Source: Neolecta irregularis DAH-3
Lineage: Eukaryota
Assembly: GCA_001929475.1 (NCBI GenBank)
Contig: LXFE01000332.1
Location: 1-54,428 of the forward strand
Direction of reading: 5' to 3'
Length of the DNA: 54,428 bases
Shown in pieces: positions 774-54,099 of this stretch. A program made the translations under genes and the position numbers. The stretch's first letter is position 1. The number at the start of each line of letters is the position of its first letter. The notes beneath the pieces are model-generated. The model did not search any database and was not told the origin of the DNA. It saw only the letters and a program-made list of their open reading frames with translations.

Positions 774-859
774 CAAGAATGGCAGGCACCGAGGATGCCC
801 GGCCAGGTCGCGGCAGTAGCGAGCCACTTTAACCCGCAACGTCCGCCCCTGCCCTTGTG

Positions 860-1530
860 GAATGCGCCCCTTGGTGGTGGGTCTGTCTTGTCTGTCTGTC
901 CCTGTCCGTCTGCCTGCCTGTCTGGATGTCTGCCTGGATGTCTGTCTGTGTCTGGATGTATGCCCTCTGGCTCTTGTCTCGGAGGTGGGCTGTAGGTCAG
1001 GGCGTCTCTACTCTTACCTTCCTCGTCTCTTCTTCCTCTGTATCCTCCTCCTCCATCTCTCCTCCATCCTCCATGGCTCGTCTCCATCTCTCTCCTCTCT
1101 ATCTCCTGCTCCCTACCCCCTCCCTCCATCAGCCACACGCTACCCCGCCCCACTGCTAGCCTCACAAACATCCCCACCATCCCGGTACTATTCTTCTCCC
1201 TCAATCCTTCATTCCATCCCACAATTTATTCTCCTTACTCCCTTCAATTACCCCTTCGTGCCTTCCTTGCTTCCCCTCCCCATCTTTCTACATCCTACCC
1301 GTATATCGCTGCTGCTAATCATGTACATCTGCCTCTAATCAAATATATTATCACATACATCTACTCTAATCATATACATCATCACATGCATCTACTATAT
1401 TCCTTCACTTCAATATATGCACTTTCTCAATCCCCCTCCCTGGCATACACTTCTCCATACATCACTCCCTCAGCATATACCTCAGCATACATCATTCCTC
1501 AGTATATACACTTCAGCATACATCACCCCC
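860..1530. repeat. Pyrimidine-rich low-complexity intergenic region between the divergent forkhead and TAM41 genes
   Basis: ctgtctg/ctggatgt microrepeats, then CT-rich and catatac-rich tracts. The overlapping ORFs are compositional artefacts. Confidence 0.6.
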
Positions 1531-1532
1531 CA

Positions 1533-17678: not shown

Positions 17679-19561
17679 TCAACTCCGGAAATCCAAAAAC
17701 CCATTCCCAATTTCATACCTTCCCAATCGCTTTAATCGTGGTGTACAACTTGATATGAATCCAAGGATATCAATTCTAGGAGTAGCATTTAATAATAACG
17801 GGCCAAGATCCAATTCTACCAAACGAGGGAATCGAAGTGCGTGGCTTCGGGAATTGAGATTACCTAGATCAATTGGAAGACCGGATTCAGGAAGTTCTAG
17901 TTCCTCAAGTTTATCAAGATATTCTGCAATGCGGTCAAATGTGGTATCCGTAAGCTCCACCATATTCTTTGATTGTAATCGAAGAACGCGAAGGTTGGGT
18001 CGTGTTCGGACTGTATTTTGCATATGCACATCAGTAAGGGAAATCGAGAAACTAGATGTTGGTTGACCGTATCCTACAATGAGTGTATGTAGACCAGGAT
18101 TGAGTTGGGCAATATCAGGTATATCTATTCCAAGAAGGACGCCTTCTCTAGAGTTGACGCGTAAACTCTCTAGGGTTGTGCAGCGGAAGGTGGTTAGTAT
18201 CTCGAGGGCTCGCGTTCCATCATCAATTGAGACATCTAGATGTTTGATTGCACGAAGATATGGCATGACACGGGCGTAGGCGGTGTTATTGAAGGGTGCT
18301 GTTAAACTTTCAAGGGACTGAAAGGCTGCTCTAGGCATTTCTTCGGGGATATTGAGGTTCGTGATTTTACAACCGAGTTGCAAGATTTTCAGTGATGGTA
18401 ACGAAGCGAGTACTGAAAATACGGTAGAGGTCACGGAGAGTTGACTGCCACTTCCTGTAATACTGATATCTTCAAGCGAGGACGACGACACTCTGATCAT
18501 GTCTATGAGTAGATGATCTGAAGCTCGGTTGTCATGATGAAGTACGGCAAGGTGAAGAGTTTTTAGACTATGGCATTGATCAGTAATGATGCTTGCGATA
18601 AACCTGGTCTCTAGTGGAAATTTGAGGATGCGAAGTGAAGAGGGGAATAACTGTCGGACATGCTCACCACGAAGAGCTCTGGTCCTATCGTCTGAATAGA
18701 GCGTGTCCAGACGGGGAAAAGCAATGTTTTTAAGCAGTTTCAGGAAATGTACAATGTCCTCTCTGGAGACTTTGTCGAGATGGATAGCTTTTGCGACGGA
18801 AGCCTGCCGTCTTTGAACTTCTTCTGGACGCTGGATCCATTGTGAAACGTTCAGATGGAGAAACAAGTACGAATTGGCGATAGTGTTCCAGGTTTTGTTC
18901 ACTGCAGCAAGAATTCCGAGGGTTTTGGTATCGTTTTTGAAGTACTTGAAGACTTCACTGACAACTACTTCAGTTTGGAGTGCATGTGTTACGATCAACG
19001 AACTACCGGAGTTGGTTTTGATAATTGACGAGTCTGGAGAAGGGACATTTTTGAATCGAGGTTTATGGTAAGACTTTAGCTTTGTGTCCAAAAGGAGGCG
19101 CGAAGAGGTTGCTAATCTGTTAGGGGTGCGATTGAGTCATACTTACTGTGACGATAAACCAAGGAAGGAAAGCAGGGGGAATGATGAAAAGAGAGGGACA
19201 TTTCGCGGTGAGAGTATCGAGTTTTGTGGCATGCGCGAGATGCTGGCAAGGTATGGGGGCGGTCTGAGAGATGGCGGCCTGTGTTTGAGGCAGGAACGGA
19301 AGGAAAACGCAGGGCCTGATCCTTGAGGGGTCTCTTTGAGAGGGATTTTTTCCTTGCACGTGATATGTCTAGGGGACGCTTGAGGGAGCGGAGACGATTT
19401 CTGGTCGAGGGACAGAGTGGTTCTCCGGGAGAATCTTGGGAGGAGTGGTGAGGCAGACAAAGGCCTGAAGGCCACTCAATATGAAAGGGCTGGTGTTGCG
19501 GGGAGGTGACAGGGCTGTCTACGTGGACAAGAGGGGAGAAGAGGGTGCAGGGAGAAAACAT
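17679..19561 (-). CDS. F-box-like / leucine-rich-repeat protein with a low-complexity N-terminal exon
   Basis: Exon 19561-19147, 35-nt intron gtaagt...ctaacagattag (19146-19112), exon 19111-17679, all in frame. F-box-like EVVVSEVFKYF...LAAVNKTWNTIANSYLF followed by LxxLxL repeats (LPSLKILQL, RPNLRVLRL, FPRLVELDL). Confidence 0.75.
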
Positions 19562-19589
19562 GGATTGCGGGAGGGAGGGCGGGGAGGGG

Positions 19590-19597
19590 TCTTTATA
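19590..19597 (-). promoter_or_regulatory. Putative TATA box of the F-box/LRR gene
   Basis: TATAAAGA on the minus strand about 30 nt upstream of ATG 19561. Confidence 0.45.
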
Positions 19598-19919
19598 GGA
19601 CTGAGGGTCACGTGTTCCACCGCCACTGTCCCTATGATGGGCCCGTGGCTGTGCGTTCACTTTATGTCACTCCACCAGGCTTTCAGTCAAGCAGCCAATC
19701 TATTTCAGTCGGTTCACTGTCAGTCCCCTCCACCAGGCCTCGTCAATCCACTCCACTCGCCCTTGTCAGTCTCCTCTACCAGTCCATCCACCAGTCTGTC
19801 CGCTCCACCCTCTACTACCAGCCCACCACCAGTCCATCTACTCCAGCGGTCTGTCAGTCTGCTCCATCAGTATACTGCTGTCCCCATCGCTGACTGCTAT
19901 TTATGACCGAGTGGTGTTT

Positions 19920-20636
19920 ATGCACCGTCCTGCCAGAACCTGCCATCCACGCAACCTGCCGCTGCTCTTTCCTCCCGCATTCCCGCACTGGAAGCGTCTC
20001 CCCGCAGAACTCCACACCCGCGTCTTGGACTTTCTCGACAAGTCCGCCCTCGCCGCCCTTGCTCTTGCTATTCACGATCCCCTCATCGACGCATACATCC
20101 AGCATATAGACTCCAAACTCGCCCCCCACTCCTTCTCCTCCGCCCCCCTCGCAGACGCCATATGGGCAGGCATATCCACCGATCCGCTACACAGTGCACA
20201 GAAATACAGCTACTTTGTCCACGAGCTGGGTCGCTTCGAGTACCACTCACAGTCCCTTGGCCTGCGTGTACATATATCAAGCCGCATACAGAAGCGCCTG
20301 TTGCTTCCCGCCTGCCCCGAACGCGCACAAATTTCCCTCTACAACTTTCTCCAATTCCTCATCCACGGCGTCCGCCTAGGCGGAGTTGGCTGGCACATCT
20401 GCTGGTCGACAATGCTCTTTTTCGTTTGGAGCGTCGAATTAAGTACTCTGCAAACTGCATACACTCTCTTCAAAAGTACTTGGAAATACACTTGTATCAG
20501 AGAGACCGAGTATCCAATGAAGGAACTGTCAAATACTTTGAAAAATGTACTGAAATACGATTGGATAGGTACAGAACTCCGTTGCTTGGTTTTGGAGTTT
20601 GAAAACGCCGTAGAAATTGTTAAAACGGCGAAATGA
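19920..20636 (+). CDS. F-box-like protein of unknown function (intronless)
   Basis: ORF from ATG 19920. WKRLPAELHTRVLDFLDKSALAALAL matches the F-box LP.E...I...L pattern. The C-terminal part is unrecognised. Confidence 0.6.
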   Translation: MHRPARTCHPRNLPLLFPPAFPHWKRLPAELHTRVLDFLDKSALAALALAIHDPLIDAYIQHIDSKLAPHSFSSAPLADAIWAGISTDPLHSAQKYSYFVHELGRFEYHSQSLGLRVHISSRIQKRLLLPACPERAQISLYNFLQFLIHGVRLGGVGWHICWSTMLFFVWSVELSTLQTAYTLFKSTWKYTCIRETEYPMKELSNTLKNVLKYDWIGTELRCLVLEFENAVEIVKTAK

Positions 20637-29580: not shown

Positions 29581-32090
29581 TCATGTTGCCATATCCATAG
29601 TTGCTTTATTTTTAGGCTCTTTTCGGGTCATGGAACCCTTGTCAATTTCTTCATCTTCAAGGCCTTCAAGAATTTTTCGCATGACTTCCAATCGTGACGA
29701 CTCGCCTAATTTAAATCGCATGCCGTCGAATGAGATTCCAATATTTGTGACCTCTCCTTCTAAGCGCGGGATTTTAGGATATCGTTGAGAAAAATGTGTA
29801 AGCAAGGTGAATTTTGCATTCATTCTCATGGTTAGTAGACAGGATAATTGAAACCTTACTGTCGTCCGATTTCCACTGCTTCAGAGGTCGTGGAATGTCG
29901 TTTTTCAACTGCTTCCGTTTTCAGATCGTCCTCGAGGGTTGCTTCGTGGATCAAAAGATCAGCACCCTGCCCGATTTCAACAAGCGCAGAACAAGGCATT
30001 GAGTCTCCGGAATAGACGATTTTCCACCCGGAGTCATGCGATATCGCAACACCATAAGCCCATGGACAGTGGTGAACTTGGCAAGTAACAACTTTTAAAG
30101 ACAACTGTGAAAAACAGGCGTTGATGTTACTATAATCAGCAGAGCGATCCAAGAAACATACTCTAGATGGATAGGGGTAGGTTTGTTAAATGAACTAGAT
30201 GTGAGCTAAGACACGTTTAACTTTGGGGAAACCTATGCAAATATCGAGATCTAATATCCTCTGCATTGATGAAACTTATGCGCGAAAGACAAATATCCTC
30301 CATTTCATTATACTCCCGCATCCAAAACATGAATCTTAATGGACCTAATATAAACAAGTTACCAGAAGGAACGAGTTGCATCCATTTTCGAATAATACCG
30401 ACTGCCCCTAGGTGATGATCTGCGTGAAGGTGTGATATCCATATCATTTTTATTGAACTTACGGCCGAATCAGCATGTGGACCGTACATTCGCTGCAATT
30501 GTCCAAGAGTACCTTCCCCAACGTCAAGGAGAATCCCATACGACGCTGTTCTGATCATTGTGCATGAGACTACAATTAATTGAAGAAACAGTGCAAGTTT
30601 ACCATTCCGATATTGACTAGGCATTGCCGAGCCACTGCCTACGCTGACAATTTCAATATCATGTGCATCAGAAGAACTCTTTATTGCCTCAACTTCTTCT
30701 CTAACTTTCTTGGCATCAATCCAAAATTGCTTAGGGATCCCTGAAAGCTTTTTATCTTGTTGAATATCTAGTGAATCGTAATCAAATGATGGCTCATATT
30801 CAGGGCTTTTGCATATTGTACGAGTTGGCTCAATTTTGTATAAATAACCGGCTTTGATCGATTCGTGGTCATTTAACGTTTCGGTCGAATAGCCTGAACA
30901 AAATTGCAAGGGAAAATTAGAGGGGGAAACTTGATTGAGTCGATACGTATGGCGAGCAGCACCGTTCAAAATAATTTTATTTACTCCATTGGAACATGAA
31001 CTTAGATGCTATAGAGTTAGACGACCAAGGTAATATCAAGTACCTGTGCATCCGGAAATTGTTCTCTCCACAATTTATATTCTGGATTATTCAAAACCTC
31101 AACTGGAGCCAGATGCACAATGTAGGCTGGGCGAAAGGTTCTCAACTGTTCGTTCTCGATCAAGCTTTTTATGTAGTGGGCGCTCGGACAATCGATGATG
31201 AATGTTGAATTTCCTTCTTTTTCCGGGCCCAATACCTCTTCAGGTCGAATAACAGTGCCATCATCGAGCGTGACAGATTCACCTCGACACAACATCCCTA
31301 ATTGTTCCCGTCTTGCGCCAAGGAGATTCGCCTTCTTGCCGTCAAGTTTTCCGCGCTTCGAATGAAATTTGATAATATAGTTATGTATAGTGGTATTGGG
31401 AGTAGTTGAGGGTAGTGAGGTAAACTGTGAGACCTTTCGATTCTTTGGCTCGCTAGAGTTGTGCATGTCATCTGACAATCTCCCATAAGTCTTATATACT
31501 ATGTCAAGTAGGGTTTGTCGATCATTCCCCGGAGTAGAGGATTGAGAGCGTGATCGTTTACGGCCAACAGCAGACGGAGACGAAGTAGACACAATCGGAA
31601 CAGGAATTATTGTGAGATGGTCGTCTGTAAAAACGGAGGGAGTGTCTGTGTACTCTTCGACGAGAAGGGGAAGCGAATTGCTCATGGTTAGTCCTGTGTA
31701 AACAAGAGACATGCTGGAAGATAAAATGCCGCGTCGAAGCTAGGAAATGTGTAATATTTCTACCACCGTGAATTCTCAGGCCCTGGCTCTTCATTCCGCT
31801 CTGCGCATCTCGCAGAGTCATCATCATGCCTATTATTAGTAGATTCGATTGAATGACAAGGGATTTGTAGTACCAGGCAAGCCGCCAATACAATCCCACG
31901 CGACTCTAGTCAAGAATGCTTCAGACATGCGCAAAACCCGAACTTTGTTAGCCATCAAGACTCGCTGGGAAGACTCTGAGCAGTTGAACAGATATCGTTT
32001 GGCCTCGTTATTGGAGTTGACGAGGAGCACTACCGCCGGTACCGCAATCTCAGCAGAGCGCGGCGCAGAAAACTGCAAATCCGCGTACAT
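29581..32090 (-). CDS. TRZ1: tRNase Z (long form), tRNA 3'-processing endonuclease
   Basis: Eight exons. [18 protein letters not shown], exosite RGKLDGKKA...[62 protein letters not shown] and [10 protein letters not shown]. Confidence 0.95.
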
Positions 32091-32584
32091 TCCGGCGGTT
32101 CGTGAAGACTGGAAGTAGCGAATAAACAGACGAGCAGCCAGCTCAAATCGATTTTTGCGTTCTAACGAGTGTAGCTCCGGAAAACTTCGCCCAGTTGCGA
32201 TTGCACAGATCACGTGAAGATAAAGATCTTTCGCGAGAAGATCTCAAACTGAAAGATGGATCAAAGCTTGATCCCGACCAGGAAATATTACAAGCCTCAC
32301 TCTCGATTTGAAATAATACTCTTGCCAGCGCTGAGACCTATGCAATCATTCAGGCCCTTTTCAATTCTTCTTAAAGAATCTCGCACTTTGAGATGATGTC
32401 AATAAATGGACGCGCGAGGTTTGAGAGACGGGCAAGGTACGCAACAGGAGAGGCGCGAGGCTGGAGAGGCGTGAGAGGCAGGCGAGATGGGAGATGTAAG
32501 GATATACCCTTTGGGTATATCTTACCAATATGACAAGGTGGCTTGACGGGAAGTATATAAAGGCGGTAGTTGGATATTCCAAGC

Positions 32585-33234
32585 CAGTGTTGGGACGGGC
32601 CAAAGCCCATGGGCTTTTCTAAGGGTCCGGACCGGCCCATGGACTGGCCAGGCCTAATATGTGACAACCATTTTGGGTGGTGGTGTTCAGGGCAGAGCAG
32701 GAATATGCTAAAAAGCAAATTACTGTATGATGTCTATAATTCTTTATATTTATTTAAATATTGGCAAGAAGGAACTGACAGGCGGGCGGGCAAGGTGGGC
32801 GGGCCAAATAGGCCAAACGGGTACGGGAGACGGGAAAGATGGGTGAGCCAGGCAGGAATGATGGAAGAGGCAAAAGAGATGGGCGGGCGAGGTGCGTGAG
32901 GAGGGCAGGACGGGCAGGATGCGCAGGACAGGCGGGAGAGACGGGAGAGGCGGGAGAGACGGGAGAGGCGGGAGAGACGGGAGAGACGGGAGAGGCTAGC
33001 GAGACTGGTTGGTGAGGCGGGCAGGCAATGCAGGTAGGAAGGCGGATATGGATGATACAGCCCAGGGGAAGGGCTGCCCAAATAGTATTATCTAATATCA
33101 CGTGAAAAGGCCCGTTTCGGCCGATGGGCCGCGCTTTTTTCTTGGCCCGGTCCCACGGGCTTTAAACCCATTTTTAAGCTCATGCGCGGGCTTTTCATGG
33201 GTCGGGCTAAGCCCATGGCCCGTCCCCAACGCTG
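32585..33234. mobile_element. Non-autonomous hAT DNA transposon, 650 bp
   Basis: TIRs CAGTGTTGGGACGGGCCA / reverse complement CAGCGTTGGGGACGGGCCA. Perfect 8-bp target-site duplication TTCCAAGC at 32577-32584 and 33235-33242. Many subterminal GGGC/GCCC motifs. Confidence 0.9.
32928..32998 (+). repeat. 9/18-nt tandem repeat (gggagaggc/gggagagac) inside the hAT element
   Basis: Direct reading: ggcgggagagacgggagaggcgggagagacgggagaggcgggagagacgggagagacgggagagg. Confidence 0.85.
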
Positions 33235-33550
33235 TTCCAAGCCAAGTACGAATACTTAGGCTAGTAATACACTTGGTCTTATCGTACTTCTACGCACATA
33301 GCTACAGGAGAGGCGCGCGAGGAGGACGAGATGGGAGAGGCAGGCGAGACGGGCTGGTGAGGCAGGTAGGAAAGCGGATAGGGAGGAGACATAGGAGGAG
33401 AAGGGCTAATCGTATTATTAACATGGAGTTTGATGACAGTGGCAGATTAGTTTATAGAAGCAGCGCTATGTTCATATAGAGGTGTGCTTGAAATAAAGTG
33501 GACATTTTGGTTGACGTGTGTTTTTGTGCTTGCATTGTGACAAGTGCAAG

Positions 33551-34366
33551 ATGACCCAACTCAAAATCCTCGTTTGGAACGTATGTTCTCCCTGAGATCC
33601 AGTGCTGAACCGGTAGGTTTGGAATCTTCCAGGAATTCTCACCGATGGATTTGGCAAATCTCGTCAAAGAGCTGCTAAAGTGTCTCCTTTACTTAATGAT
33701 TTCGATATAGTTATAGTCAACGAGTCCTTCATGCATCGTAACGAGCTTCTTTCAAAGACTATTCATCAATATCGCTATGAGTTGAATCGTGGAAAGAGTC
33801 TCGCAATTTTTAACGGTGGCGTCGTAATACTTTCAAAATACGCTATTGTTGAGAAGGCTGGTGAAGTCTATCATTCACGCACCCGCTGGGATCGATTCGC
33901 TGCAAAGGGGATTGCTTTCGTCCGTCTTGATGTGGATGGGATGATGCTGGATGTTTATGGGACCCATATGCAATCTGGGGACAAAAACTCAGAACAAGAG
34001 GCCCGCCTTGCCCAAGCTAGTCAAGTCGCCGAGTTCATCAAAAGGAATTCTTCACAAGACTCCAAGATTGTTTTTGGTGGGGATATCAATATGGGACCGG
34101 TACTGGATCCCACGTTCCAAAAGTTTAGTGCTCATTATACGGACGAGCAGGATGTACGAGCGCGGCATAAAGCCTATGAGACTTTGAAGACGAAGAGCGG
34201 ATTAGAGGACATTGTTAGCGAAGAACCCGAGTTTTTAGAGGACATCAATCGCTTCTTGGGAAGAAATCTTGGGGAAAAAAAGGTGACTTATCTCGGGCTG
34301 GAGCGTTGCGAGGACGGTTCTCGATTGAGCGACTCACAGTCTGTCCTTCTCACCATCACTATCTAA
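33551..34366 (+). CDS. Endonuclease/exonuclease/phosphatase (EEP) fold, sphingomyelinase-C-like enzyme
   Basis: Exons 33551-33580 and 33617-34366. MTQLKILVWNVWNLP, FDIVIVNESF, NGGVVILSKYAI, DRFAAKGI, YGTHMQS, ARLAQ, VFGGDIN and LSDSQ. Confidence 0.85.
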
Positions 34367-40121: not shown

Positions 40122-42060
40122 ATGTCCCTTTTTCGACGGCGGCAGACATCGAGTCCACAACGATGTTTCTATTGCAATCAGTACTCGAACCAACAGCCAG
40201 ACACACACGAATGGCTATGTCCACTCTGCGACGCTATTAACCATCTCGACCAGGTACATCTGAACAATACCTGGTAAACTAACTACGAGAATGGAGAAAT
40301 TGCAGACTATACTCCACCAGTTACTACACAGGATGGCAAGCCACGTTTGCCTTTACGTCCCAGTTATCCACCGCTGAACTCGCCATTCTGTCAGTCTTGT
40401 GCAAATAACCACACCGTTCTGGTCAATTCGCTCGCATCGTTCATCCCTGACGACTCGCACCCCGACTATCAGACTTATCTCGCTGCCTACCCTGCCTATC
40501 GAGCCCAACTGGAAGAGTTATACCCCCTTGTGTGTGGAGCATGTGCTCCTCAAGTCAAGGGCCGGCTTGATCGGAATAATTATATAGCAAAGGCTCGGGC
40601 ATTAGGTAACTGGCTCGAAAAATCGAATATCTCCACAGGGAAAAATAAAATGGCATGGGGAACACGTTTCAGAATTGTTTTGTGGTTTATTAAAGGTGCA
40701 CTCTGGTGCTCAACTATATTTCTTTTATTCGTGTTCTATATCTACGGTATACCCAACATCTTGTTGCAAGTTCTAATTTCTTTAAGGAATTGTGTACACT
40801 CCAGATCAGTTACGTTCGCATTACCCTTTCTTCACTATCGAAAAGATACTAGCTCTCGATTCGGGGTGTTTTATTCCTCTGCGGTCGTTTCTACGCCGTT
40901 ATCTGCCCTTGTCTTTTCTTTATAATTTCTGGCTATGTGCTTGGTATAAGGCTATACGAACTCCAAACGCGACTCTTTCAGGAACGAAAGAGTATCACGT
41001 AGGGATCCTTTTTTTTCTTGTACTTCTCACTGATTTATAGAAAATTCAGTGGTTACAATACATTTTTCGTCTGGTTTTCATATATTCATTCGACTACCCT
41101 TCTTCTGGGGTCAGTCTATTCTTCGTCTTATTCTCGTCTTTGGTATGAATCTTGCTGAATCTTTCTTGTATTAACTGAGAGGCACTGGTGTTTTCGTTTT
41201 ATTCTTTAAAAGTTGTTACACCTCCTAAAATCACACTTCAAGATTCCCATCCTACGAGTTTCGACGCTATAGTGGACGCAACTCTGTGCATTCCACCTAC
41301 TCTTGTCCTCCAGAAGCAAGATCACACTCTTCAGCAGAATATACGAGGTGATAACAATCGGTCACATCCGGTGCATTTTTCCCCTCGTCCGACATGGATT
41401 CCCCTCGACATTAAAACTCCTGCAAAGTCACCAAGCCCGTTTACTGCGTCGGTCCCTATACCACCTGCTCCCAGATCATCACTTACATCCTCTCAACCGA
41501 CGAGAAATAACAAACTGCCGCCCCTTCGCAATCCCGTTCTAAAGAACTCGGGTTTGTCTACCGGTATGTCTTTTACCATCTCTGAAGAACCTCGTTTTCA
41601 GTCACCTCTGGTCGATCCAACTAACAAAGCTCATTTGCCTCTTGCCCCTCAAAAGTTCTTCGCACCGGAAGAAGCGACCGGTCTTGAAAACTTATTTGCT
41701 CCTGCATTGAGGTTAGACGACGAGCCGTTAATTGTACAGGCTCTGAAGAATGTCAAGCGGCATCGGCCTTGTTGGATAGATATCTCGGCGTTCTTCTTCT
41801 GCACGATTGTTGGCATTTGGAAGCCTTTTGTCGGTTGGGCTGGACTTTGCATCATTGCCTCAATTCTCGGGACCGGCAGGCGACGCTTCGTCCAGATATT
41901 CTTGGCTGCAGTCATTTCAGTGGTAATTTGGTGTTTTCAGAAAATTATTTTTGTTTACGCGTCGGCTAGTATTAGTTTGGCGGTACTTTGCGGAATGGTT
42001 AGCTGGAGAATATGGGCCAGAGACCTGCAAAAACAACAACAGCGACGAAAAAAGCTTTGA
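40122..42060 (+). CDS. IMA1: Inner nuclear membrane protein Ima1 (Samp1/NET5 family)
   Basis: CFYCN...WLCPLCDAINHLDQNGEI, FCQSCANNH...LASFIPDDSHPDY...LEELYPLVCGAC (Ima1_N CxxC pairs), TM helices and PQKFFAPEEATGLENLF. Four introns. Confidence 0.9.
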
Positions 42061-43551: not shown

Positions 43552-45729
43552 TTACCAATATCCAACTATGTCCTTGGTCTTGTTACTTTCATCATCATCA
43601 TCATCATCTTCTAGATCGTCTTCTGGTTCCTCATCGTATTTCCACCACTGAATCCCCGTATCCCCAAACACACCGAATTCTTCTTTCTCCTGCAGTTCCT
43701 GTTTTTGCGCCCAGGGTTCTTGACTCAGTTCCCACTCTTGCAACAGGTGGTCCTCAGTATCATAGCCCGAGTCATATTTCTTGATTCCCATGTGTCTTGG
43801 ATGTAGGAACACACCTTTCGTCTCTCGATTATAGAAACGCGCCAACCCGTGCGTCTTTAGCGGCAAGTAACTCCATACTTTATGCTCCCATCTGCGTTGA
43901 AGCACGTTAGCTGAACTAAATGGAAAATACAGGGTGCGAATAGTTTCGAAATCTCTTCCGTACCGTGCGATTCCACGCAACAAGGTATCTAACTCAATTT
44001 TTGTCCACTGGAGGTGATGATGTATCGGCTCCAACTTTGCTCGGTACCGACGCCATATGAGATTCGGACTTCTTCGAGGGACCATGTTGCAGATAAATCG
44101 CCAGTTTCCCGTGGCTGATCCGTACCGCTCAATAGCGAGGCATATACTTTTGTCTTCGTCACACGAAAAGGCTTTATTGCCTTTTCGAAGTGTGCCGTCT
44201 GAGCAATAGAGGTTGTAAAATCGCCAGCATAGAGATCCGATATTGGGTATTTTTTGGTATTTAGAATTATCAGATAGACCCTTTTTTGCAATTGTGTCGG
44301 CCCAAACGGTTTTAAAGACCGGGTAGATCTTTTCCCAGCACTCCTCAAGGTCGATAATGACATCCATGATTTCGTTGTGTATTGCTGACCATACGTTGAA
44401 GGGTTTAATTTTGCGAGGGGGAATCATGTGCGGCAACAACATGGGTTCACCGCTGGTTGAAGTTTTAAGTTGGAGACATTTTTGATATTCCCGTGAAGAA
44501 TAGAGATCCGCTGGAGCTTTTGCGCTTCTGATAAAGTCTCTAAAGGCGAAGACATCTGTTGATTTCTTATTTTCCTCGCCTGGATTTTGAAAAGGATGAT
44601 ATGAAAAGGAGGACGAAGCGGGATATTGAGAGTCCAAGAGACCTGTTCGTTTCCAGTCCCCGTAAGGGCTCCTCTCACCTTGCTTTTTTTTCGCTTTGAT
44701 AGGATGGCCAACAGGTTCAAGAGAAGGTGATTGTTCTTGAATATTCTGGGATGTCTCTATTTGTGTGTTGGATGAGGTTGGGTGAATTTGGGTATTGGTT
44801 TCCTTGAGGAAAGAATCGCGGAAGCGGGATGGATTCGTTATAAAATCATCCCTGGTTTGTCTCCAGTTATCGGCAGGATCTTGGTAATCAGATGATTGTT
44901 CACTTTGCGCACTGTGTGAAGGGATTGTGTGATCAGAGAGACTACGTTGGGATCTATTGAGAACTCTCCCATCAGAAAACGAATTGCGATAAGAAACGCG
45001 ATCGTGTTCATCAGATTGCCTTGGAGTATGGCGTTGATCTGTGGAGGACCAAGATGTATTTCTTTGTGTTCTTGCCGAGCCGTATGTGTTCTCTACTCGT
45101 TGGGGTGTATCGTGAGTTCTTGCATCAGAAAAAGAATTGCGATAAGAAACTCGATCATCATCAGATTGCCTTGGGGTATGGCGTTGATCTGCGGAGGACC
45201 AAGATGTATTTCTTTGTATTCTTGCCGAACTGTATGTGGTCTCTACTCGTTGGGGTGTATTGTGAGTTCTTGCATCAGAAAAAGAATTGCGATAAGAAAC
45301 TCGATCATCATCATCAGATTGCCTTGGGGTATGGCGTTGATCTGTGGAGGACCAAGATGTATTTCTTTGTATTCTTGCCGAACCGTATGTGTGCTCTGTT
45401 TGTTGGGGTGTAGTGCGACTTTTTTCACGAGAAAAAGAATTGTGGTAGCCCACTCCGTCGTCATTGGACTGCTGATGGGGCTGGTCTCGAAATGACCAGG
45501 TCGCCCCTCTTAGCGTTCTTACAGGATCATCGGAGCGACCGTGAGGCAATGGGTGGGATTTTTCGGCGAAGAAAGAATGTCGATAAGCAGAGCCGCCAGA
45601 AGGGCGGTCTTCGTTTCTTGTTGCGGGTTTTGGAATATTGTTGCGGGGCGGAGCAAGGGAGGGGAGGGATCGAGAGCACGCCGCGGCATGCAGCGGGCGA
45701 ATACAGGGCGCTCTGAGTGCAGCGGCCAT
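43552..45729 (-). CDS. Myb/SANT-repeat protein with an N-terminal tandem-repeat region (intronless)
   Basis: 725-aa ORF. Myb-like repeats FSCDEDKSICLAIERYG...WRFICNMVPRRSPNLIWRRY and WTKIELDTLLRGIARYGRDFETIR...LQRRW, plus an acidic tail. Confidence 0.82.
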   Translation of the reverse strand: MAAALRAPCIRPLHAAACSRSLPSLAPPRNNIPKPATRNEDRPSGGSAYRHSFFAEKSHPLPHGRSDDPVRTLRGATWSFRDQPHQQSNDDGVGYHNSFSREKSRTTPQQTEHTYGSARIQRNTSWSSTDQRHTPRQSDDDDRVSYRNSFSDARTHNTPQRVETTYSSARIQRNTSWSSADQRHTPRQSDDDRVSYRNSFSDARTHDTPQRVENTYGSARTQRNTSWSSTDQRHTPRQSDEHDRVSYRNSFSDGRVLNRSQRSLSDHTIPSHSAQSEQSSDYQDPADNWRQTRDDFITNPSRFRDSFLKETNTQIHPTSSNTQIETSQNIQEQSPSLEPVGHPIKAKKKQGERSPYGDWKRTGLLDSQYPASSSFSYHPFQNPGEENKKSTDVFAFRDFIRSAKAPADLYSSREYQKCLQLKTSTSGEPMLLPHMIPPRKIKPFNVWSAIHNEIMDVIIDLEECWEKIYPVFKTVWADTIAKKGLSDNSKYQKIPNIGSLCWRFYNLYCSDGTLRKGNKAFSCDEDKSICLAIERYGSATGNWRFICNMVPRRSPNLIWRRYRAKLEPIHHHLQWTKIELDTLLRGIARYGRDFETIRTLYFPFSSANVLQRRWEHKVWSYLPLKTHGLARFYNRETKGVFLHPRHMGIKKYDSGYDTEDHLLQEWELSQEPWAQKQELQEKEEFGVFGDTGIQWWKYDEEPEDDLEDDDDDDESNKTKDIVGYW
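44965..45460. repeat. Coding minisatellite, 150-153 nt unit, about 3.3 copies
   Basis: The anchor catcagaaaa(a)gaattg recurs at about 44970, 45123, 45273 and 45426. It encodes YGSARIQRNTSWSSTDQRHTPRQSDDDRVSYRNSFSDAR repeats. Confidence 0.92.
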
Positions 45730-45827
45730 GTAGTAGAGTAGAGTTTGAATGACAGAAGCAACGGAGTTTGAATTAGTTAATAACGGGTGGAGGATTAAGT
45801 ATCCGCCAGCGGGCCAGGAACCCGCAA

Positions 45828-47054
45828 ATGAACCACCAACTAATCCAGGCCCACCGCCATCTCCATCTCCAGATCACCCGTCGCCTTGCGCATATCGGCA
45901 CTGGTATTGGTGCTGCTGTTCCGGCTGCAGGTGCGCGCCGTCTCGTCTCGACGACTCGATCAGCGAGCGATTTTGAGGCAGACTATTTTGCCCGCCCACC
46001 ACTGCCCGTCAACACCATCATCAAGTTTGTACCCCAGCAGGAAGCATGGGTTGTTGAGCGCATGGGCATCTCGCATTTATTCTGCACGCCTGCTAATTTC
46101 CAGGCAAATTCCACAAAATCTTGTCGCCCGGTCTTGCTATCCTGCTGCCCGTCCTCGACCGTGTCCGCTACGTAAAGTCCCTCAAGGAAATCGCAATGGA
46201 GATCCCCAGCCAGGCTGCAATCACGCTCGACAATGTGACCCTTGACATCGACGGTGTTCTCTATATCCGAATAACCGACCCGTTCAAGGCCTCTTACGGC
46301 GTCGAGGACGCTGAATACGCAGTGTCCCAACTCGCCCAGACCACCATGCGCTCAGAAATAGGGCAGTTGTCACTCGACGCAGTACTGAAAGAACGGTACG
46401 TGCTCTCTCCCCACCTGATCTCGTCTAATTCCTAGTCAGCAACTAAATCTCAACATCTCCGAAGCCATCAACGAAGCCGCTATAGACTGGGGCGTCAAAT
46501 GTCTCCGCTACGAAATCAGAGACATCCGTCCCCCAAAGGTTGCCAATTCACTCGTCCTGACTGATTCGTAGAACGTCCTTCAAGCTATGCACCAGCAAGT
46601 CTCTGCAGAACGTTCCAAACGAGCCTTGATCCTCGAATCCGAAGGCTCCCGCCAATCCGCCATCAACCGTGCTGAAGGCCAAAAACAATCCGTAATCCTC
46701 TCTTCTGAAGCCGTTAAAACAGAAACAATAAATCGTGCCCAAGCTGATGCCCAGGCCATCCTCCTCAGAGCCGAAGCCACAGCCTGCGGAATTGAACTCG
46801 TTTCAAAAGTCTTGAAAACACAGGCTGCCATAGATGCCGTTGGCTTGACTGTTGCCGAAAAATACGTAGAGGCGTTTGGTAACCTGGCAAGACAGGGAAC
46901 AACCCTTGTTATTCCTGCCGGTCTGGCCGACGTCGGCGGAATGGTAGCTTCATCCTTGGGCATCTTTCAAAAGGTGAAAGAGGGTCTAAATGTCGCTTCT
47001 CCTCAACAAAAGATTCAAGCCTTTGCTGACAATAATGAACAGAAGACTGAATGA
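45828..47054 (+). CDS. Stomatin-like protein 2 (SPFH/Band-7), mitochondrial
   Basis: NTIIKFVPQQEAWVVERMGKFHKILSPGL, SQAAITLDNV, AVSQLAQTTMRSEIG, WGVKCLRYEIRDI, QVSAERSKRALILESEG and VAEKYVEAFGNLA. Three introns, the first GC-AG. Confidence 0.94.
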
Positions 47055-47323
47055 TCTTTGGTACGGTTGCGGTATGTACAGAATGACGACTTTGCTATGA
47101 TGGATTTCCTTGTTAATACGTTGGAGCCTATGTACAGACAGAATACAAATCCCAACTCGATTTCCTACTCGTCTCCCCAAAGGTCCCCTCTACAACGTCC
47201 CGTAACCTTGATGGAAAACATCATTCCCACAACATATAGGCCCATGGACAACTGCAGTCTTTGTCATTTACACCGCTAGCGGTATTTCAACTCTTATACA
47301 TGAGCCCTTGAAAAGCTACATGA

Positions 47324-48018
47324 CTAATCTCTCTTGTTAGCTACACGCAGGCACGTATCATCCCCATTTTGATTGCCCGCTTGACAGTTCTCCCTCAAAC
47401 TACATTTCGCATCCGCTCCATAATTAACTCCTATCATTTTTTTCCCATCATTCGACTTATCAAGGGCAATATTCTTCTCCAGCTTTGTTTGGTGATCTTT
47501 GATTGCTGCTACATCAACTTGCCCTTGCGCTTTCTTGATGTCGAGAACGGTCAATTCAAGTTTTCCGACTAGTGAGAATCTAACAACACTCAGACCTTAC
47601 AATTTGAGGACTTTATTTGCTATAAGTCCCCCATAAAGCTCATCATACTTCGGATCCCCGCTTTTCAAGCTTCTATAGTAGTGTTAACAGACATACGAGA
47701 ATAGCAAGATACTTCAACAGCGGAACAAAGCACGAGGTTTCGGCTTCTTCAGCATTCAACCGCTCCTGGTGGATCACCTGAATATCCTCTTGCGACATTT
47801 CCGCAAAGTTTGCCGGGTTAAGATCTACGTCAGCCACCAATAATCCCCTGTGTTATCTTACCTGGAGGTAAAGCAGCCTTGGCTGCTTCTTCAGCATTAC
47901 CAGCTGTACCACAGGAAATTGACATCTCGTTGAATGTTCTTAATGTGAAGGTAGACTGTTTTTGAACCGGCGCAGCCGTGGTAAATGAGTAGATAAAAAG
48001 GACGCTTAAGAATTGCAT
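47324..48018 (-). CDS. Fungal small secreted protein (SIS.G.AGNA / NKVLKL / NIALD family)
   Basis: Signal peptide MQFLSVLFIYSFTTAAP. Four exons. Motifs FNEMSISCGTAGNA, RLNAEEAET, ANKVLKL, KLEKNIALDK. The third intron has an unusual acceptor. Confidence 0.8.
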
Positions 48019-49028
48019 CTTGGCTCTCGAGGATTATTGGAAAGAGATCTGAATAACCGACAAAAGACGAGACGGCCAGCGCAATTGAAAAAGAATAATG
48101 ACATCAATAAGGTGCTCTTTTGCGAGTTTAAATAACCATTTCGGAAGTTGTGTGCCCCGTAAAAACGATCCAGGCGATCTCTAACCTGCACGTACCCATA
48201 TTTGTAATAACAAACTTGACCCGTTAACTGAAACCGTTGCAAAGTTTTAAACTACCGAAGAGGTTGCTCAAGTTTGCCCCCCTTGTCGCATCATGTTATC
48301 CCTGAATCAACAAGGTCCTGGTAGTTTTCCATCAAGTCTTGCTACTACCCGAGCAACTGCACCAGCAGGCTAATCCCACAATTCCTGAAATTGTGTATGC
48401 TAATAGAAGCGAGGATTGTTCCCTTCTAGCTGGTTCCTGAACTCAAATTCCCTTTCAACGATATTAAAACGACCCGCTTTGGCCAATGTCGGTGTAGTGT
48501 ATCTTCTCCCCCTAAAGTCTTTCACTAGGTGAGGATGATCTAAATGCCACTTTATTCACACACTATAAAATGGACTTTTTGCTTCCAGTATCGAAGAGAA
48601 CAAACTAGTGAATTGATCTGTTTCAATGCGTATAAATTTCAAAGAGGCCCAGGAAGCTGGCCAGCCCAGCCCGGCGCGTCATTCAATTGCCTAAAGAGGG
48701 GTTTTAGTGAAACAGCATGACAATCGTCAAGCTGAACTACAGCCTAGGAATAAAGAATGTTTCACTAGAAATAGTGATCATGTGAAGAATTCGAGGGCCT
48801 CCACGTCCAGACAAGAGACTTGCTCAATATGAAATGAAACTAAATAGGGGGAATAACATTTACATTTCACGACTTGAGAAGGGTTAAAGTTAGAGATGAC
48901 ATTGTCTGGTATAGTTTCGTTGTTTTCCTTATAACCAGATAGTGATCCAATGGTCTTTCGCATCCTTAGTCATTATTCATTCTGCTTTTAGCCATTTCGA
49001 ATTTTATAGTCACCTAGAATAGTAAATT

Positions 49029-50091: not shown

Positions 50092-51560
50092 ATGCCCATC
50101 GGTATTCGACGCATCAACAATACATCACATCACCCAAATGATCGAATCGCCTTTATAAAGCCGCTTGTTCCGATATCGCCCATCGCGGAAGATTATCTCA
50201 AACGCATTGCAGCTATAGTATACCCTTTGATGAAGAATCATGGAATGGACATAATGAGTCTCAATGAATTCGAACCCAACAGGGAATTTCTGGGCCGGTA
50301 ACTCGAAAACCTTCAAGGTTTAATTCCTAAGACTGTTAGAAATTGGAATGCGGGAGAGTGTGTAGAGTTGGTTTTAAAGGATCTGACTGGCAACTGGTTA
50401 CCTTTTAGATTTGTATGCTCTTGTGGGGGGATATGCAGTCTAACCAATTTTTTCTAGGTTCTGAAGTATGCATTAACAAGTTGGAGCTGTCTCATTGAGT
50501 AGTACGATGCTACACGAATTATCTCATATTCAGTATGCATATCAGCTTCTATTTCTTATTAAACGAAAGGGTAATGTCGCATTCGAAAGCGTTTTGGAAT
50601 TTCTATCATGTTTTACGTTCGGAAATGAAAATTCTACTTGATAAGGGCTATACTGGAGAAGGAATCTATGCTCGCGGACATTCGCTTTCGTCGAATGAGA
50701 CATCCGACCATTCCCTTCTTGGTTCCGATATTCCTCAGGTTGTTTGCGGTGGAGTTTATAAAAGGAGTAGAAAGCGGAAGAAGAAGATAAAAGATACCAC
50801 CGGAATCCAACTTGGTGCCGATGAAGATATGAGAAGAGGGATGGAAGGGAAAAGTCATTCCGCCAAGGTCAACCGCCAGGATATACAAAACTTCGTACTG
50901 ACAGATGCAGCCTAGAGTCGCAAAGAGCAAGCGCGGGCGAGATTTAAGGGCTGCCGCCGCCGAAATGAGAGGCCTGGAGGCAGAAATTGAACGAGAGAAT
51001 GAAGAGGATGTCTCTGAAAGGTACGATTTGACTGTGCATGATTTACATGATTTAGGGTCGTTGATGAACAAGATCAGATTAACAAGATGCGAGATGAGAT
51101 GCGAGATATTCTGCGCGGAATGGAACCAAACAAATGTATTCGAGTTGGAAGTGATGTTTGGGATCTTGAAACCTCTCCACTCAAGGGGGACTGCTCAAGA
51201 AATGGAACCGGTTCAATATCTAATCAAGGAACCACGATTTCTATTACGGAGAAGGCAAACAGTCTCTTGAAGCCGGAACAAACACAGAACATCAAACCTG
51301 ACAAGCTTAGTTCTCAAATCAGGGAACCGTCAAAATTATCTCCGATGACTACTTTAGGCACGGCTGTGTCGTGTCATATATGCACAACGCTTCATCAACA
51401 GCCAGTTCCCATGATTTGTTCAATATGCAGTTGCGTATTACGACCAATCATTTCCAAATGTTTCATATGGCAGTGCAAAAATTCCCATTGTCAAAGTATC
51501 GGCTATTTTAATCATATTGATATCGGGGGCTGTGGACTTTGTGGCTCACTGAAGAGGTAG
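50092..51560 (+). CDS. WSS1: WLM-domain (Wss1-like) metalloprotease with C-terminal Cys clusters
   Basis: LKRIAAIVYPLMKNHG, LNEFEPNREFLGRNWNAGECVELVLK, TMLHELSH, HSKAFW, GYTGEG, PRVAKSKRGRDLRAAAA and C-terminal CxxC pairs. Six introns. Confidence 0.85.
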
Positions 51561-51778: not shown

Positions 51779-54099
51779 ATGGGCGACCGTAATCTTTATT
51801 CCCATTATCTGTCTGAGTTTTAGGAGGACCTCCACGTGTGAAGAACAAGGCGCCTAATCCTATTCAAATCACAGCAGAACAAGTACGTCTACGAATTTAC
51901 TAAATGTAATTTGGCAAGCTCCTTCGGGAAGCGTTCGAGCGCCGAGAACCAGAGCTTCAAATCCCAAAGCATCGCATTAGCGATCTAGAAGAAGTGTGTT
52001 TCGTTCCCGTGATTATCAAATCTGACTATCAGCTTCAAGAATTCCAGTCACGAAAACGAAGAGAGTTCGAAGATGGCATTCGTCGAAATCGTCTGCAGAT
52101 GGGAAATTGGAAGCGTTATGCTCAGTTTGAAGTCGAGCAGAATGAATTTGCCAGAGCACGATCAGTGTTTGAAAGAGCTCTAGATGTCACATATCAAGAT
52201 ATTCCCCTTTGGTTGGCATACATAGATATGGAGATGAAAAGTCGGAATATCCAACATGCAAGGAATCTTCTGGATCGTGCCGTCACCCTTCTTCCTAGAG
52301 TCGATAAATTTTGGTACAAGTATATCCTTCCGCAAAAGAAAATTGTGCTGATTCTCATAGATATGTTTACTTAGAGGAAACTCTTGGTAATATCGCTGGC
52401 ACTCGACAAGTTTTTGAAAGATGGACTATGTGGGAACCAGATGAAGACGCGTGGAGTGCATATATAAAAATGGAAAAGAGGTACGGTGAATACGGACTCG
52501 CACGAACGATTTTTGAAAAATTCACGATAGTTCACCCAGAGCCCAAAAATTGGATCAAATGGGCGAGATTCGAAGACGATTATGGAACACCAGGTATCTC
52601 ATGTCCTATGACTTCTTACCAATCAGTAGAAAACGTACGCGAAGTTTTCACTCTAGCCATTGACACGCTTGGAGATGAATTCATGGATGAGAAGGTATTC
52701 ATAGCCTACGCCCGCTTCGAAGCGAAGCAAAAAGAATACGAACGAGCCCGTGTGGTCTACAAATATGCACTAGACCGTTTACCTCGAAGTAAAGCCGCTT
52801 CATTATACCGACATTATACAACCTTTGAAAAACAATTTGGCGACACAGACGGTATTGAAGATGTTATTTTAACTAAACGTCGGCTTGCATACGAATCAGA
52901 AATCAAAGACAACCCCAAAAACTTCGATATTTGGTTTGATCTCACACGACTGGAAGAGACTGCTGGAGATGTAACGCGAGTTCGGGAAACTTATGAACGT
53001 GCAATAGCGCAATTACCGCCAAGTCAAGAAAAGAAACATTGGAGGCGGTATATTTACTTATGGCTTAATTACGCCGTTTACGAAGAACTCGAAACAAACG
53101 ATTATCAACGTGCGCGCGAGATTTATCGGGCTTGTATAAAGTTGGTTCCACACAAGATTTTCACGTTTGCAAAGGTGTGGATCGCGTTTGCCTTATTTGA
53201 AATTAGGCGTTTGGATGTATCGGGTGCAAGGAAAATCTTGGGACAAGCAATTGGCATGTGTCCCAAAGAGCGGTTGTTTAAAGGATATGTTGATCTCGAA
53301 ACCCAGGTTTCACCATCTAAGAGATTATGCTAACTATGGTAGCTACGAGAATTTGACAGGTGTCGGATATTGTATCAAAAATATCTCATGTTTCGGCCAG
53401 AGAATTGTTCAGCTTGGATCAAATATGCTGAACTCGAACGGATGCTAGGAGATCTCGATCTTGCTCGACATATTTATGAGCTTGGTCTCAAAATGGAAGA
53501 ACTCGACATGCCCGAGCTCTTATGGAAGGCCTACATTGACTTTGAGTTTGAAGAGGAAGAGTACGATTGTTGTCGGACCTTGTACGAAAGACTCCTCGAA
53601 AAGACTTCCCATGTTAAAGTTTGGATCTCCTTTGCACGCTTTGAAATCAGTCTCGACCTTGAGGATGACAAGGAACGTGCCGAAAACGTTTTCAAGAGAG
53701 CAGAAAAGGAATTTAAAGAGCAGGGGCTAAAGGAAGAGGTATGTTTAGGTGTTTCTGGATATGTTTAATTTATTGTAGAGGGTTGTTCTCATGGAGGCTT
53801 GGCATAAATTTGAACAAGAATGTGGAACACCAGCTGATGTTGTCGAAATCGAGAAACGAATGCCGAAGACTATTTCTAAGAGGCAAAGATTGGATGATGG
53901 TACTTTTGAAGAAGTATGCTTTCCATTTATCTGATGAAATCTGATATTTTAGTATTACGACTACATCTTCCCGATGGATGAAGGTGATCAGCAATCAAAG
54001 ATGTCTAAATTGATGGACGCTGCTGCTGCTTGGAAAGAGAATATGAGAAAGAAACAGGAATCCAGAGCTACTGCTCAGAGTTCGGGCGGTATAAAATAA
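51779..54099 (+). CDS. CLF1: Pre-mRNA splicing factor Clf1/Syf3/Cwf4 (crooked neck), HAT repeats
   Basis: [98 protein letters not shown] and EEYYDYIFP. About 9 exons. TAA at 54097-54099. Confidence 0.96.

What the first reader, a model, noticed from the sequence alone, without database searches (positions are those of the whole stretch)
47565..47600. Second, independent CGG 3' splice site in the small secreted protein gene
Seen: AAT AAA GTC CTC AAA TT|gtaaggtctgagtgttgttagattctcactagtcgg|A AAA CTT GAA TTG ACC GTT CTC GAC. A 36-nt intron with a consensus donor and a CTCAC branch-like motif ending in CGG gives NKVLKLKLELTVLDI. From recollection of the family, this aligns without a gap to NKVLKL-x-x-E-x-x-V-L-x-I. 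The nearby TAG, 4 nt earlier, causes a frameshift and immediate TGA. The upstream TTAG gives a 21-nt intron plus 5 extra residues. Two CGG cases in 54 kb suggest that this spliceosome picks the acceptor by distance from the branch point and tolerates non-AG ends. This is the best candidate here for an undescribed system.
Basis: partly seen in the sequence, partly recalled or inferred. Interest (0 to 1): 0.8.

Follow-up and report, generated by a model that had tools for sequence, protein, structure and literature searches.

The report
Short fungal intron ending GG, not AG
A small secreted-protein gene of the fungus Neolecta irregularis contains a typical 36-base intron that ends in GG instead of AG; it is either a rare but already documented GT-GG intron or a freshly broken splice site, not evidence of a new splicing system.

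Summary
On the minus strand, 47600-47565 is a 36-nt stretch with GTAAGG at its 5' end, CTCAC 8 nt from its 3' end, and CGG at the end. It separates two same-frame ORFs and holds one TAA.

The window is a whole contig of Neolecta irregularis DAH-3. GenBank's model of this gene (83 aa) stops at that TAA.

Homology requires removal of exactly these 36 nt. In 129 of 129 motif copies from 123 family members, Ala lies 12 residues after NKVLKL with no gap, and only the 36-nt excision reproduces this. No GT-AG, GC-AG or AT-AC pair does. The 21-nt alternative inserts 5 residues into a confidently predicted helix.

In length and signal spacing the element matches nine verified neighbouring introns (35-41 nt, three of exactly 36 nt). 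All nine end in AG.

The only other ORF-supported CGG candidate I found (4801-4834) has an in-frame canonical TAG 6 nt downstream. GT-GG introns are a documented rare class.

No reads could be obtained, so whether splicing occurs is open. My odds: functional GT-GG intron about 0.45, recent acceptor-loss allele about 0.38, base error about 0.08.

The parts
47324..48018 (-). Four-exon gene for a fungal small secreted protein (about 193 aa if the 36 nt are excised). GenBank model NEOLI_000884 covers only Met28 to the in-intron TAA (83 aa).
   Evidence: The spliced product matches a family profile over positions 3-148 of 150 at 130.9 bits.
47862..48018 (-). Exon 1. The ATG is at 48018-48016, followed by a hydrophobic N-terminus (likely signal peptide, not tested with a predictor). 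Ends in phase 1.
47825..47861 (-). Intron 1: 37 nt, GTAAGA...CTGAC...TAG, with the branch-like A 5 nt from the 3' end.
   Evidence: P0006 and the profile alignment are ungapped across the junction.
47713..47824 (-). Exon 2.
47673..47712 (-). Intron 2: 40 nt, GTATCT...TTAAC...TAG, with the branch-like A 11 nt from the 3' end.
   Evidence: The junction is present in annotated protein P0006.
47601..47672 (-). Exon 3. Ends in phase 2 straight after the family's invariant NKVLKL motif.
47565..47600 (-). Candidate intron 3: 36 nt, 5' GTAAGG, 3' CGG. This is the finding.
47597..47599 (-). In-frame TAA inside the candidate intron. It is the stop codon of the GenBank model.
47572..47576 (-). CTCAC branch-like motif. 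Its A at 47573 is 28 nt from the 5' end and 8 nt from the 3' end of the candidate intron.
   Evidence: Same spacing as CLF1 intron 5 (27 and 9 nt).
47569..47571 (-). TAG 4 nt after the branch-like A. Using it gives a 32-nt intron, a frameshift and an early TGA.
47565..47567 (-). CGG at the position of the acceptor. The G at 47566 sits where every verified neighbouring intron has A.
47324..47564 (-). Exon 4: 79 full codons plus the stop at 47326-47324. It carries the conserved C-terminal helices of the family and a 33-aa Cys-containing tail not seen in the relatives I looked at.
   Evidence: (exon 4 adds about 54 bits to the profile score).

Best explanation
The 36 nt at 47600-47565 (minus strand) are the third intron of a Neolecta irregularis gene for a conserved fungal small secreted protein. 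In every respect but one it is an ordinary intron of this genome: a GT donor, a branch-like CTCAC 28 nt in and 8 nt from the end, and the modal local length of 36 nt. The exception is that the last two bases are GG, one transition away from AG. I think it most likely that the U2-type spliceosome still removes it, as a rare GT-GG intron and perhaps inefficiently. The final G can still pair with the 5' G in the second step, and the nearby TAG lies too close to the branch point to compete well. The result would be a 193-aa protein in exact register with its family. Shown: the anatomy, the homology requirement and the lack of any canonical alternative. Inferred: that splicing at GG really happens.
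For: (1) Ex3 and ex4 are in one frame with a single TAA between them. (2) The 36-nt-excised product scores 130.9 bits against a profile of 9 family domain copies, with no gap at the junction. The 21-nt option scores 123.3, retention 114.8 and TAG use 76.4. (3) In 129 of 129 NKVLKL copies from 122 of the 123 relatives examined, Ala is at +12 ungapped and Ile is at +9 in 120 of 129. The 123rd protein, with NKVLKH, also has Ala at +12. The excised product has E+3, L+7, I+9, K+10, A+12, Q+13 and G+14. (4) No GT-AG, GC-AG or AT-AC pair within about 60 nt keeps both the motif and the spacing. (5) The junction lies inside a helix (residues 132-162 of relative P0007, pLDDT above 96), so insertions are unlikely to be tolerated. 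(6) Nine verified introns of the contig are 35-41 nt, three of them exactly 36 nt, with the branch-like A 5-11 nt from the 3' end where a motif is found (8 of 9). (7) Exon 4 is intact and is as well conserved per aligned position as exons 1-3: about 54 bits over 46 positions against 76 bits over about 100. (8) GT-GG introns are documented. Ganoderma lingzhi has 38 of about 92,100 introns of this type, the third commonest non-canonical type (PMC11590231, passages). A Fusarium graminearum list of non-canonical sites includes GT-GG, and seven such genes were Sanger-confirmed (PMC3577648, passage). Human BANP has a GT-GG intron conserved in vertebrates, with AG in fish (PMC4176328, passage).
Against: There is no transcript evidence of any kind. 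All 9 verified neighbouring introns end in AG, 8 of them in TAG, so this genome shows no general tolerance of non-AG ends. A sequence-preferred TAG lies 4 nt upstream, and intron 1 of the same gene uses an AG only 5 nt from its branch-like A, so mis-splicing to the TAG is plausible. The annotators, who had RNA data (PMC5309816, passages), ended the model at the in-intron TAA. That is what intron retention would give, although pipelines restricted to canonical sites would do the same. A single A-to-G change is also exactly what a young null allele looks like. My estimate that functional GT-GG introns are about as common per genome as such null alleles rests on other species and rough reasoning, not on Neolecta data.
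Confidence: 0.45

Rival explanations
1. Recent loss of the acceptor. An ancestral CAG acceptor mutated to CGG, and the intron is now retained (stop at the TAA, as in the 83-aa GenBank model) or mis-spliced to the TAG or to a downstream AG (frameshift). In this isolate the gene would then be a young pseudogene or null allele that encodes a protein without the conserved C-terminal helices.
For: It is one transition away from a canonical acceptor at the expected distance from the branch motif. 9 of 9 verified neighbouring introns need AG. The deposited model stops at the in-intron TAA. The material was field-collected fruiting bodies, so segregating null alleles are possible (PMC5309816, passages). 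Dispensable secreted-protein genes are often lost; this last point is general knowledge and was not tested here.
Against: There is no second lesion anywhere. The start codon, both other introns, 79 exon-4 codons and all family-invariant residues are intact, and exon 4 is at least as conserved per position as the rest. The event would therefore have to be very recent. Such AG-to-GG null alleles are expected to be no commoner per genome than real GT-GG introns (rates, my inference).
Confidence: 0.38
2. Base-call or consensus error, or a minor allele taken into the assembly. The true common sequence would have CAG, and the intron would be fully canonical.
For: A single base makes the whole anomaly. 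The assembly is a fragmented short-contig draft (N50 16 kb) from pooled field material (PMC5309816, passage).
Against: Coverage is stated as 199-fold. At any plausible consensus error rate, the expected number of errors falling on the A of an acceptor AG genome-wide is well below one (my estimate).
Confidence: 0.08
3. An ultra-short 21-nt GT-AG intron (47600-47580) is removed, giving a protein with five extra residues after NKVLKL.
For: It is canonical at both ends and in frame. It still scores 123.3 bits.
Against: It is 12 nt shorter than the shortest ORF- or homology-supported intron seen in the contig (33 nt). Its only branch-like A would lie 11 nt from the donor. It moves the invariant Ala from +12 to +17, against 129 of 129 relatives, inside a confident helix. 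The one look-alike, a 21-nt GT...TAG at 10945-10965, is better read as a 33-nt intron with TCTTAC and CAG downstream.
Confidence: 0.02
4. Splicing at the TAG (32 nt) followed by a +1 ribosomal slip on the A-run, or stop-codon read-through of a retained intron, restores the downstream frame.
For: An AAAA run follows the CGG.
Against: The slip product would put the invariant Ala at +13, and read-through would insert 12 residues. Both break the 129-of-129 register. Each also needs a second rare event.
Confidence: 0.02

Closest known systems
Minor non-canonical GT-GG U2-type introns (Ganoderma lingzhi, Fusarium graminearum, human BANP)
   Same: GT donor and GG at the 3' end, with otherwise U2-like signals. 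The site is one base from AG, as in BANP, where fish have AG.
   Different: Those cases have transcript support, and this one has none. Here the intron is only 36 nt long and a competing TAG lies 4 nt upstream.
Ordinary short GT-AG introns of Neolecta irregularis (the seven CLF1 introns and introns 1 and 2 of this gene)
   Same: Same length class (35-41 nt, three of exactly 36), a GT[AT]... donor, a YTNAY-type branch motif 5-11 nt from the end, and frequent internal stops.
   Different: The last two bases are GG. All nine comparators end in AG (8 TAG, 1 AAG).
Splice-acceptor -2 A>G loss-of-function alleles (for example human SLC26A4 c.919-2A>G; abstract seen in the listing)
   Same: The same single-base change at the same position of the acceptor.
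   Different: In that case mis-splicing is demonstrated. Here the outcome is unknown, and in such a short intron exon skipping is less likely than retention or a cryptic AG (inference).
Fungal 'small secreted protein' family with the NKVLKL motif (Orbiliales, Agaricomycetes, Tremellales, Pyricularia, Trichoderma, Melampsora; no Pfam entry)
   Same: Profile match over 146 positions, all invariant motif residues present, a signal-peptide-like N-terminus and a helical core.
   Different: The Neolecta protein has K and L where most relatives have T and G at +1 and +2. It has Cys where relatives have Asp in the SDG motif, and a 33-aa C-terminal tail with three Cys. The family's function is unknown, and there was no Foldseek match in the PDB at E <= 0.001.

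Membership tests
U2-type spliceosomal intron (canonical GT-AG) | GT at the 5' end with a GTRNG-like extension | tested here: met
   GTAAGG at 47600-47595. GTAAGG is also the donor of the ORF-supported intron 29825-29859.
U2-type spliceosomal intron (canonical GT-AG) | Branch-point motif at the local distance from both ends | tested here: met
   The A of CTCAC is 28 nt from the donor and 8 nt from the end. CLF1 intron 5 has 27 and 9, and intron 4 has 25 and 11. The motif is read from sequence only; the branch itself was not mapped.
U2-type spliceosomal intron (canonical GT-AG) | AG at the 3' end | tested here: not met
   It ends in CGG. 9 of 9 verified neighbouring introns end in AG.
U2-type spliceosomal intron (canonical GT-AG) | Excision restores a reading frame collinear with homologues | tested here: met
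Minor non-canonical GT-GG intron | GT...GG termini with otherwise U2-like signals and no canonical alternative | tested here: met
Minor non-canonical GT-GG intron | Spliced junction observed in RNA | not testable with these tools
   No run was listed and no genome is held. Two metagenome scans found nothing.
U12-type (minor spliceosome) intron | Donor [AG]TATCCTT and branch TCCTTAAC near the 3' end (consensus recalled from the literature) | tested here: not met
   The donor is GTAAGGTC and there is no TCCTTAAC-like motif.
Unitary pseudogene / null allele by splice-site loss | A disabling change at an essential splice base | tested here: inconclusive
   G replaces the expected A at 47566, but GG acceptors can function.
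Unitary pseudogene / null allele by splice-site loss | Further lesions or relaxed conservation downstream | tested here: not met
   Exon 4 has no stop or frameshift and contributes about 54 bits over 46 profile positions.
Fungal NKVLKL small secreted protein family | Profile match and invariant residues (NKVLKL, Ala at +12) | tested here: met
   130.9 bits, E 7e-42 in a four-sequence search.

The most novel reading that the evidence does not exclude
In Neolecta, with its very short introns (35-41 nt), the second-step site would be set mainly by a fixed distance of about 7-11 nt from the branch point. AGs that lie too close are ignored. A G at the last position alone would suffice, so NG acceptors would be used at an appreciable rate genome-wide and current annotations would truncate those genes.
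Probability: 0.06. Interest if true: 0.6.

Novelty: new member of a known kind. Interest (0 to 1): 0.27.

Why it matters
If the GG site is used, this adds a clean, homology-anchored GT-GG intron in an early-diverging ascomycete with very short introns. It would be a convenient natural substrate for asking how far the second step of splicing depends on the -2 adenine when the branch-to-acceptor distance is fixed. In either case the deposited gene model (83 aa, no signal peptide, no C-terminal helices) is wrong or incomplete. Canonical-only pipelines will truncate such genes. If the site is dead, this is just a young null allele of a dispensable secreted-protein gene.

Tried and rejected
- Transcript evidence: the look-up of sequencing runs on 46500-48100, kind rna, listed no RNA holder.
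- Whole genome: none is held for this window. Only CLF1 lies in the window.
- Relatives' genomic loci: the search for related loci with alignment A1 in metagenome contigs gave 297 pattern matches, none confirmed. An exact 29-nt exon-3 pattern in metagenome contigs gave 0 matches. Intron-position conservation in relatives and a second Neolecta sequence therefore remain unseen.
- Pfam gave no family for any exon.
- The 36-mer is not a repeat; the best other match in the window has 15 mismatches.
- The CGG-ended candidate at 50860-50898 (-) lies antisense to a WLM-domain gene and was dropped. The one at 40530-40574 lies inside an uninterrupted ORF, and those at 47813-47861 and 47801-47861 are displaced by the canonical 37-nt intron 1, whose junction is in the annotated protein.
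- My ORF-pair scan for junctions lacking a canonical intron was too noisy to use. Of four LTN1 junctions it flagged, three have canonical GT-AG introns with weak donors (GTGAAC, GTCATC, GTCCAA), and the fourth (13672-13760) I left unresolved.
- Fold search of the family model in the PDB gave nothing at E <= 0.001, only generic helical bundles.
- P0001 (782 aa, repetitive) looked like a chance low-complexity hit. It was left out of all counts, as was P0006, which is the window's own protein.
- Earlier-findings look-ups returned nothing.
- Supplementary methods of PMC5309816 (assembly and annotation pipeline) were not seen. They may say how the 83-aa model was made.

Full report
**What is there.** The finding lies on the minus strand. 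A four-exon gene starts at the ATG at 48018.
- Exon 1 is 48018-47862.
- Intron 1 is 47861-47825 (37 nt, GTAAGA...CTGAC...TAG).
- Exon 2 is 47824-47713.
- Intron 2 is 47712-47673 (40 nt, GTATCT...TTAAC...TAG).
- Exon 3 is 47672-47601.
- The questioned 36 nt are 47600-47565.
- The last ORF is 47564-47324.

Exon 3 and the last ORF are in the same frame, separated by one TAA at 47599-47597. The 36 nt begin with GTAAGG, carry CTCAC with its A 28 nt in and 8 nt from the end, then TAG, and end in CGG. That includes the frameshift and TGA if the TAG is used, and the 21-nt in-frame option ending at 47580.

**Source.** A search of 1.84 billion representative proteins returned a protein 100% identical over the part of the query it covers. 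It is 83 aa long and comes from a 54,428-nt contig. Two tools name it as hypothetical protein NEOLI_000884 of Neolecta irregularis DAH-3. That model splices introns 1 and 2 as above, starts at the second Met and stops at the TAA inside the 36 nt. The genome paper states a 14.5-Mb assembly at 199-fold coverage with N50 16 kb, made from DNA and RNA of field-collected fruiting bodies (PMC5309816, passages only). Its supplementary methods were not available to me.

**Does homology need the 36 nt removed?** Yes.
- The first search gave 7 hits at E <= 0.001. I set aside one repetitive 782-aa protein as spurious. The others are fungal secreted proteins, with Melampsora P0007 the closest.
- A pairwise-style alignment with P0007 opens a gap of exactly 12 columns over the 36 nt.
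- I built a profile from 9 domain copies of 5 relatives and scored four products. The 36-nt-excised product scored 130.9 bits with no gap at the junction. The 21-nt option scored 123.3 with a 5-residue insertion. Retention scored 114.8, and TAG use scored 76.4.
- A profile search then found 483 family members at E <= 0.001 among 4,404 candidates, of which 120 were listed.
- I examined 123 relatives, meaning all fetched except the spurious hit and the window's own protein. Of these, 122 carry NKVLKL, giving 129 copies in all. In ungapped register Ala is at +12 in 129 of 129, Ile at +9 in 120, Gln or Lys at +13 in 121, and Glu at +3 in 83. The one protein with NKVLKH also has Ala at +12.
- The 36-nt-excised product has E+3, L+7, I+9, K+10, A+12, Q+13 and G+14. 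The 21-nt product puts the Ala at +17.
- An AlphaFold model of P0007 with 92 aligned relatives (mean pLDDT 85.7, above 96 over residues 50-195) places the junction inside helix 132-162.

**Is there a canonical way out?** No. I enumerated every GT-AG, GC-AG and AT-AC pair that spans the TAA between 47660 and 47500 (15-120 nt). The only in-frame product that keeps NKVLKL is the 21-nt one. Every other pair deletes the motif or shifts the frame. Sliding the 36-nt window by one base gives the same protein, but with TA...GA ends. Other shifts create a stop or destroy the motif (my reading). GT...GG is therefore the only sensible boundary.

**Is it like this genome's introns?** Yes, apart from the GG.
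- The neighbouring CLF1 (crooked neck) gene served as a control. Its annotated protein P0126 (685 aa) is reproduced exactly by seven introns of 35, 36, 41, 36, 36, 40 and 39 nt.
- Six of these junctions are ungapped against nine orthologues. The first lies beside a one-residue N-terminal length difference.
- Together with introns 1 and 2 of the target gene, that makes 9 checked introns. All are GT-AG (8 TAG, 1 AAG). Where a YTNAY-type motif is found (8 of 9), its A lies 5-11 nt from the 3' end.
- ORF-supported introns elsewhere in the contig are 33-52 nt long. In two of them (10147-10180 and 19112-19146) an AG 3 nt after a CTAAC motif is bypassed for one 7-8 nt away.
- The target's geometry (28 + 8 = 36) is therefore modal. 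The 36-mer is unique in the window.

**The wider claim.**
- The only other credible CGG-ended candidate I could find is 4801-4834 (+) in an ArAE_2 transporter gene. A canonical TATAG six bases on (4801-4840, 40 nt) is equally in frame. It leaves four rather than six extra residues against the Pfam profile spacing.
- A loose ORF-joining scan gives as many candidates for most end dinucleotides as for AG: 122 for AG against 72-141 for the others. ORF joining alone therefore proves nothing.
- With 9 of 9 verified introns ending in AG, I see no sign of a general relaxation of the AG rule in this contig.

**Known precedent.** GT-GG is a documented minor class.
- In the manually curated Ganoderma lingzhi annotation it accounts for 38 of about 92,100 introns (0.041%), the third commonest non-canonical type (PMC11590231, abstract and Table 1 passage).
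- It is listed among the non-canonical sites found in Fusarium graminearum, where seven genes with such sites were Sanger-confirmed (PMC3577648, passage).
- The human BANP GT-GG intron is conserved across vertebrates, with AG in fish (PMC4176328, passage).
- A survey of 130 fungal and 489 animal genomes concludes that the 3' site is more flexible than the 5' site (PMC7072748, passages).

**Weighing.** That the 36 nt are, or very recently were, an intron of this gene I hold at about 0.9. What happens to the RNA is open.
- For real GT-GG splicing: the downstream exon is intact and is at least as conserved per position as the upstream ones. There is no second lesion. Published rates suggest about one to eight GT-GG introns in a genome with some 20,000 introns (the extrapolation and the intron number are mine).
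- For a young null allele: the change is a single transition. Every checked neighbour needs AG. A TAG, the locally preferred acceptor triplet, sits 4 nt upstream, while intron 1 uses an AG at 5 nt. The deposited model ends where a retained intron would end it.
- A base error is unlikely at 199-fold coverage but cannot be excluded.
- My odds are 0.45 for GT-GG splicing, 0.38 for a null allele, 0.08 for a base error, and 0.02 each for the 21-nt intron and for slip or read-through.

**Verdict.** But it is one GG-ended intron of a known rare kind, or a broken one, and not a new splicing system. Interest is modest. The practical yield is a corrected gene model and a well-defined RT-PCR test.

Noticed in passing
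window 51779-54099 (+): Pre-mRNA splicing factor CLF1 (crooked neck), 685 aa, with seven introns of 35-41 nt. Three of them are exactly 36 nt, so they are in frame. The exon model reproduces the annotated protein exactly.
   Followed up: yes
window 52594-52629 (+): CLF1 intron 4 ends in a tandem CAGTAG. Orthologue alignment is ungapped only if the distal TAG is used, so the first AG after the CTTAC motif (8 nt away) seems to be passed over, or both are used as NAGNAG isoforms.
   Followed up: partly
window 10945-10977 (+), and 9994-10026 (+): Two 33-nt in-frame introns in the listerin (LTN1) gene, the shortest seen in the contig. The first contains a TAG 21 nt from the donor that mimics a 21-nt intron.
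   Followed up: partly
window 10147-10180 (+) and 19112-19146 (-): CTAACAG: an AG 3 nt after the branch-like A does not fit the flanking ORFs, whereas an AG 7-8 nt away does. This suggests a minimum branch-to-acceptor distance.
   Followed up: partly
window 47324-48018 (-): The deposited model NEOLI_000884 (83 aa) starts at the second Met, so it lacks the hydrophobic N-terminus, and it stops inside intron 3. The family-collinear product would be about 193 aa.
   Followed up: yes
window 45082-45437: Three look-alike units about 150 nt apart (starting near 45082, 45232 and 45385) showed up in the intron scan. They lie inside the 773-codon Myb-domain ORF on the opposite strand (43555-45873), so the protein probably holds a roughly 50-aa tandem repeat.
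   Followed up: no
window 1-2000, 18000-20000, 32000-34000: Stretches of raised G+C (0.50-0.54 against about 0.42) with strong GC skew and long overlapping ORFs on both strands. Coding strand and content were not worked out.
   Followed up: no
window 13672-13760 (+): After the 35-nt intron 13637-13671 in LTN1, the frame that stays open differs from the long downstream ORF starting at 13735. A further short intron must lie near 13745, but I did not resolve it.
   Followed up: no
proteins P0005, P0007-P0125: The NKVLKL small secreted protein family is widespread in fungi (483 hits) and has no Pfam entry. It has a confidently predicted helical fold with no PDB match at E <= 0.001. One member is labelled Klebsiella pneumoniae on a 652-nt contig, which is probably contamination.
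   Followed up: partly
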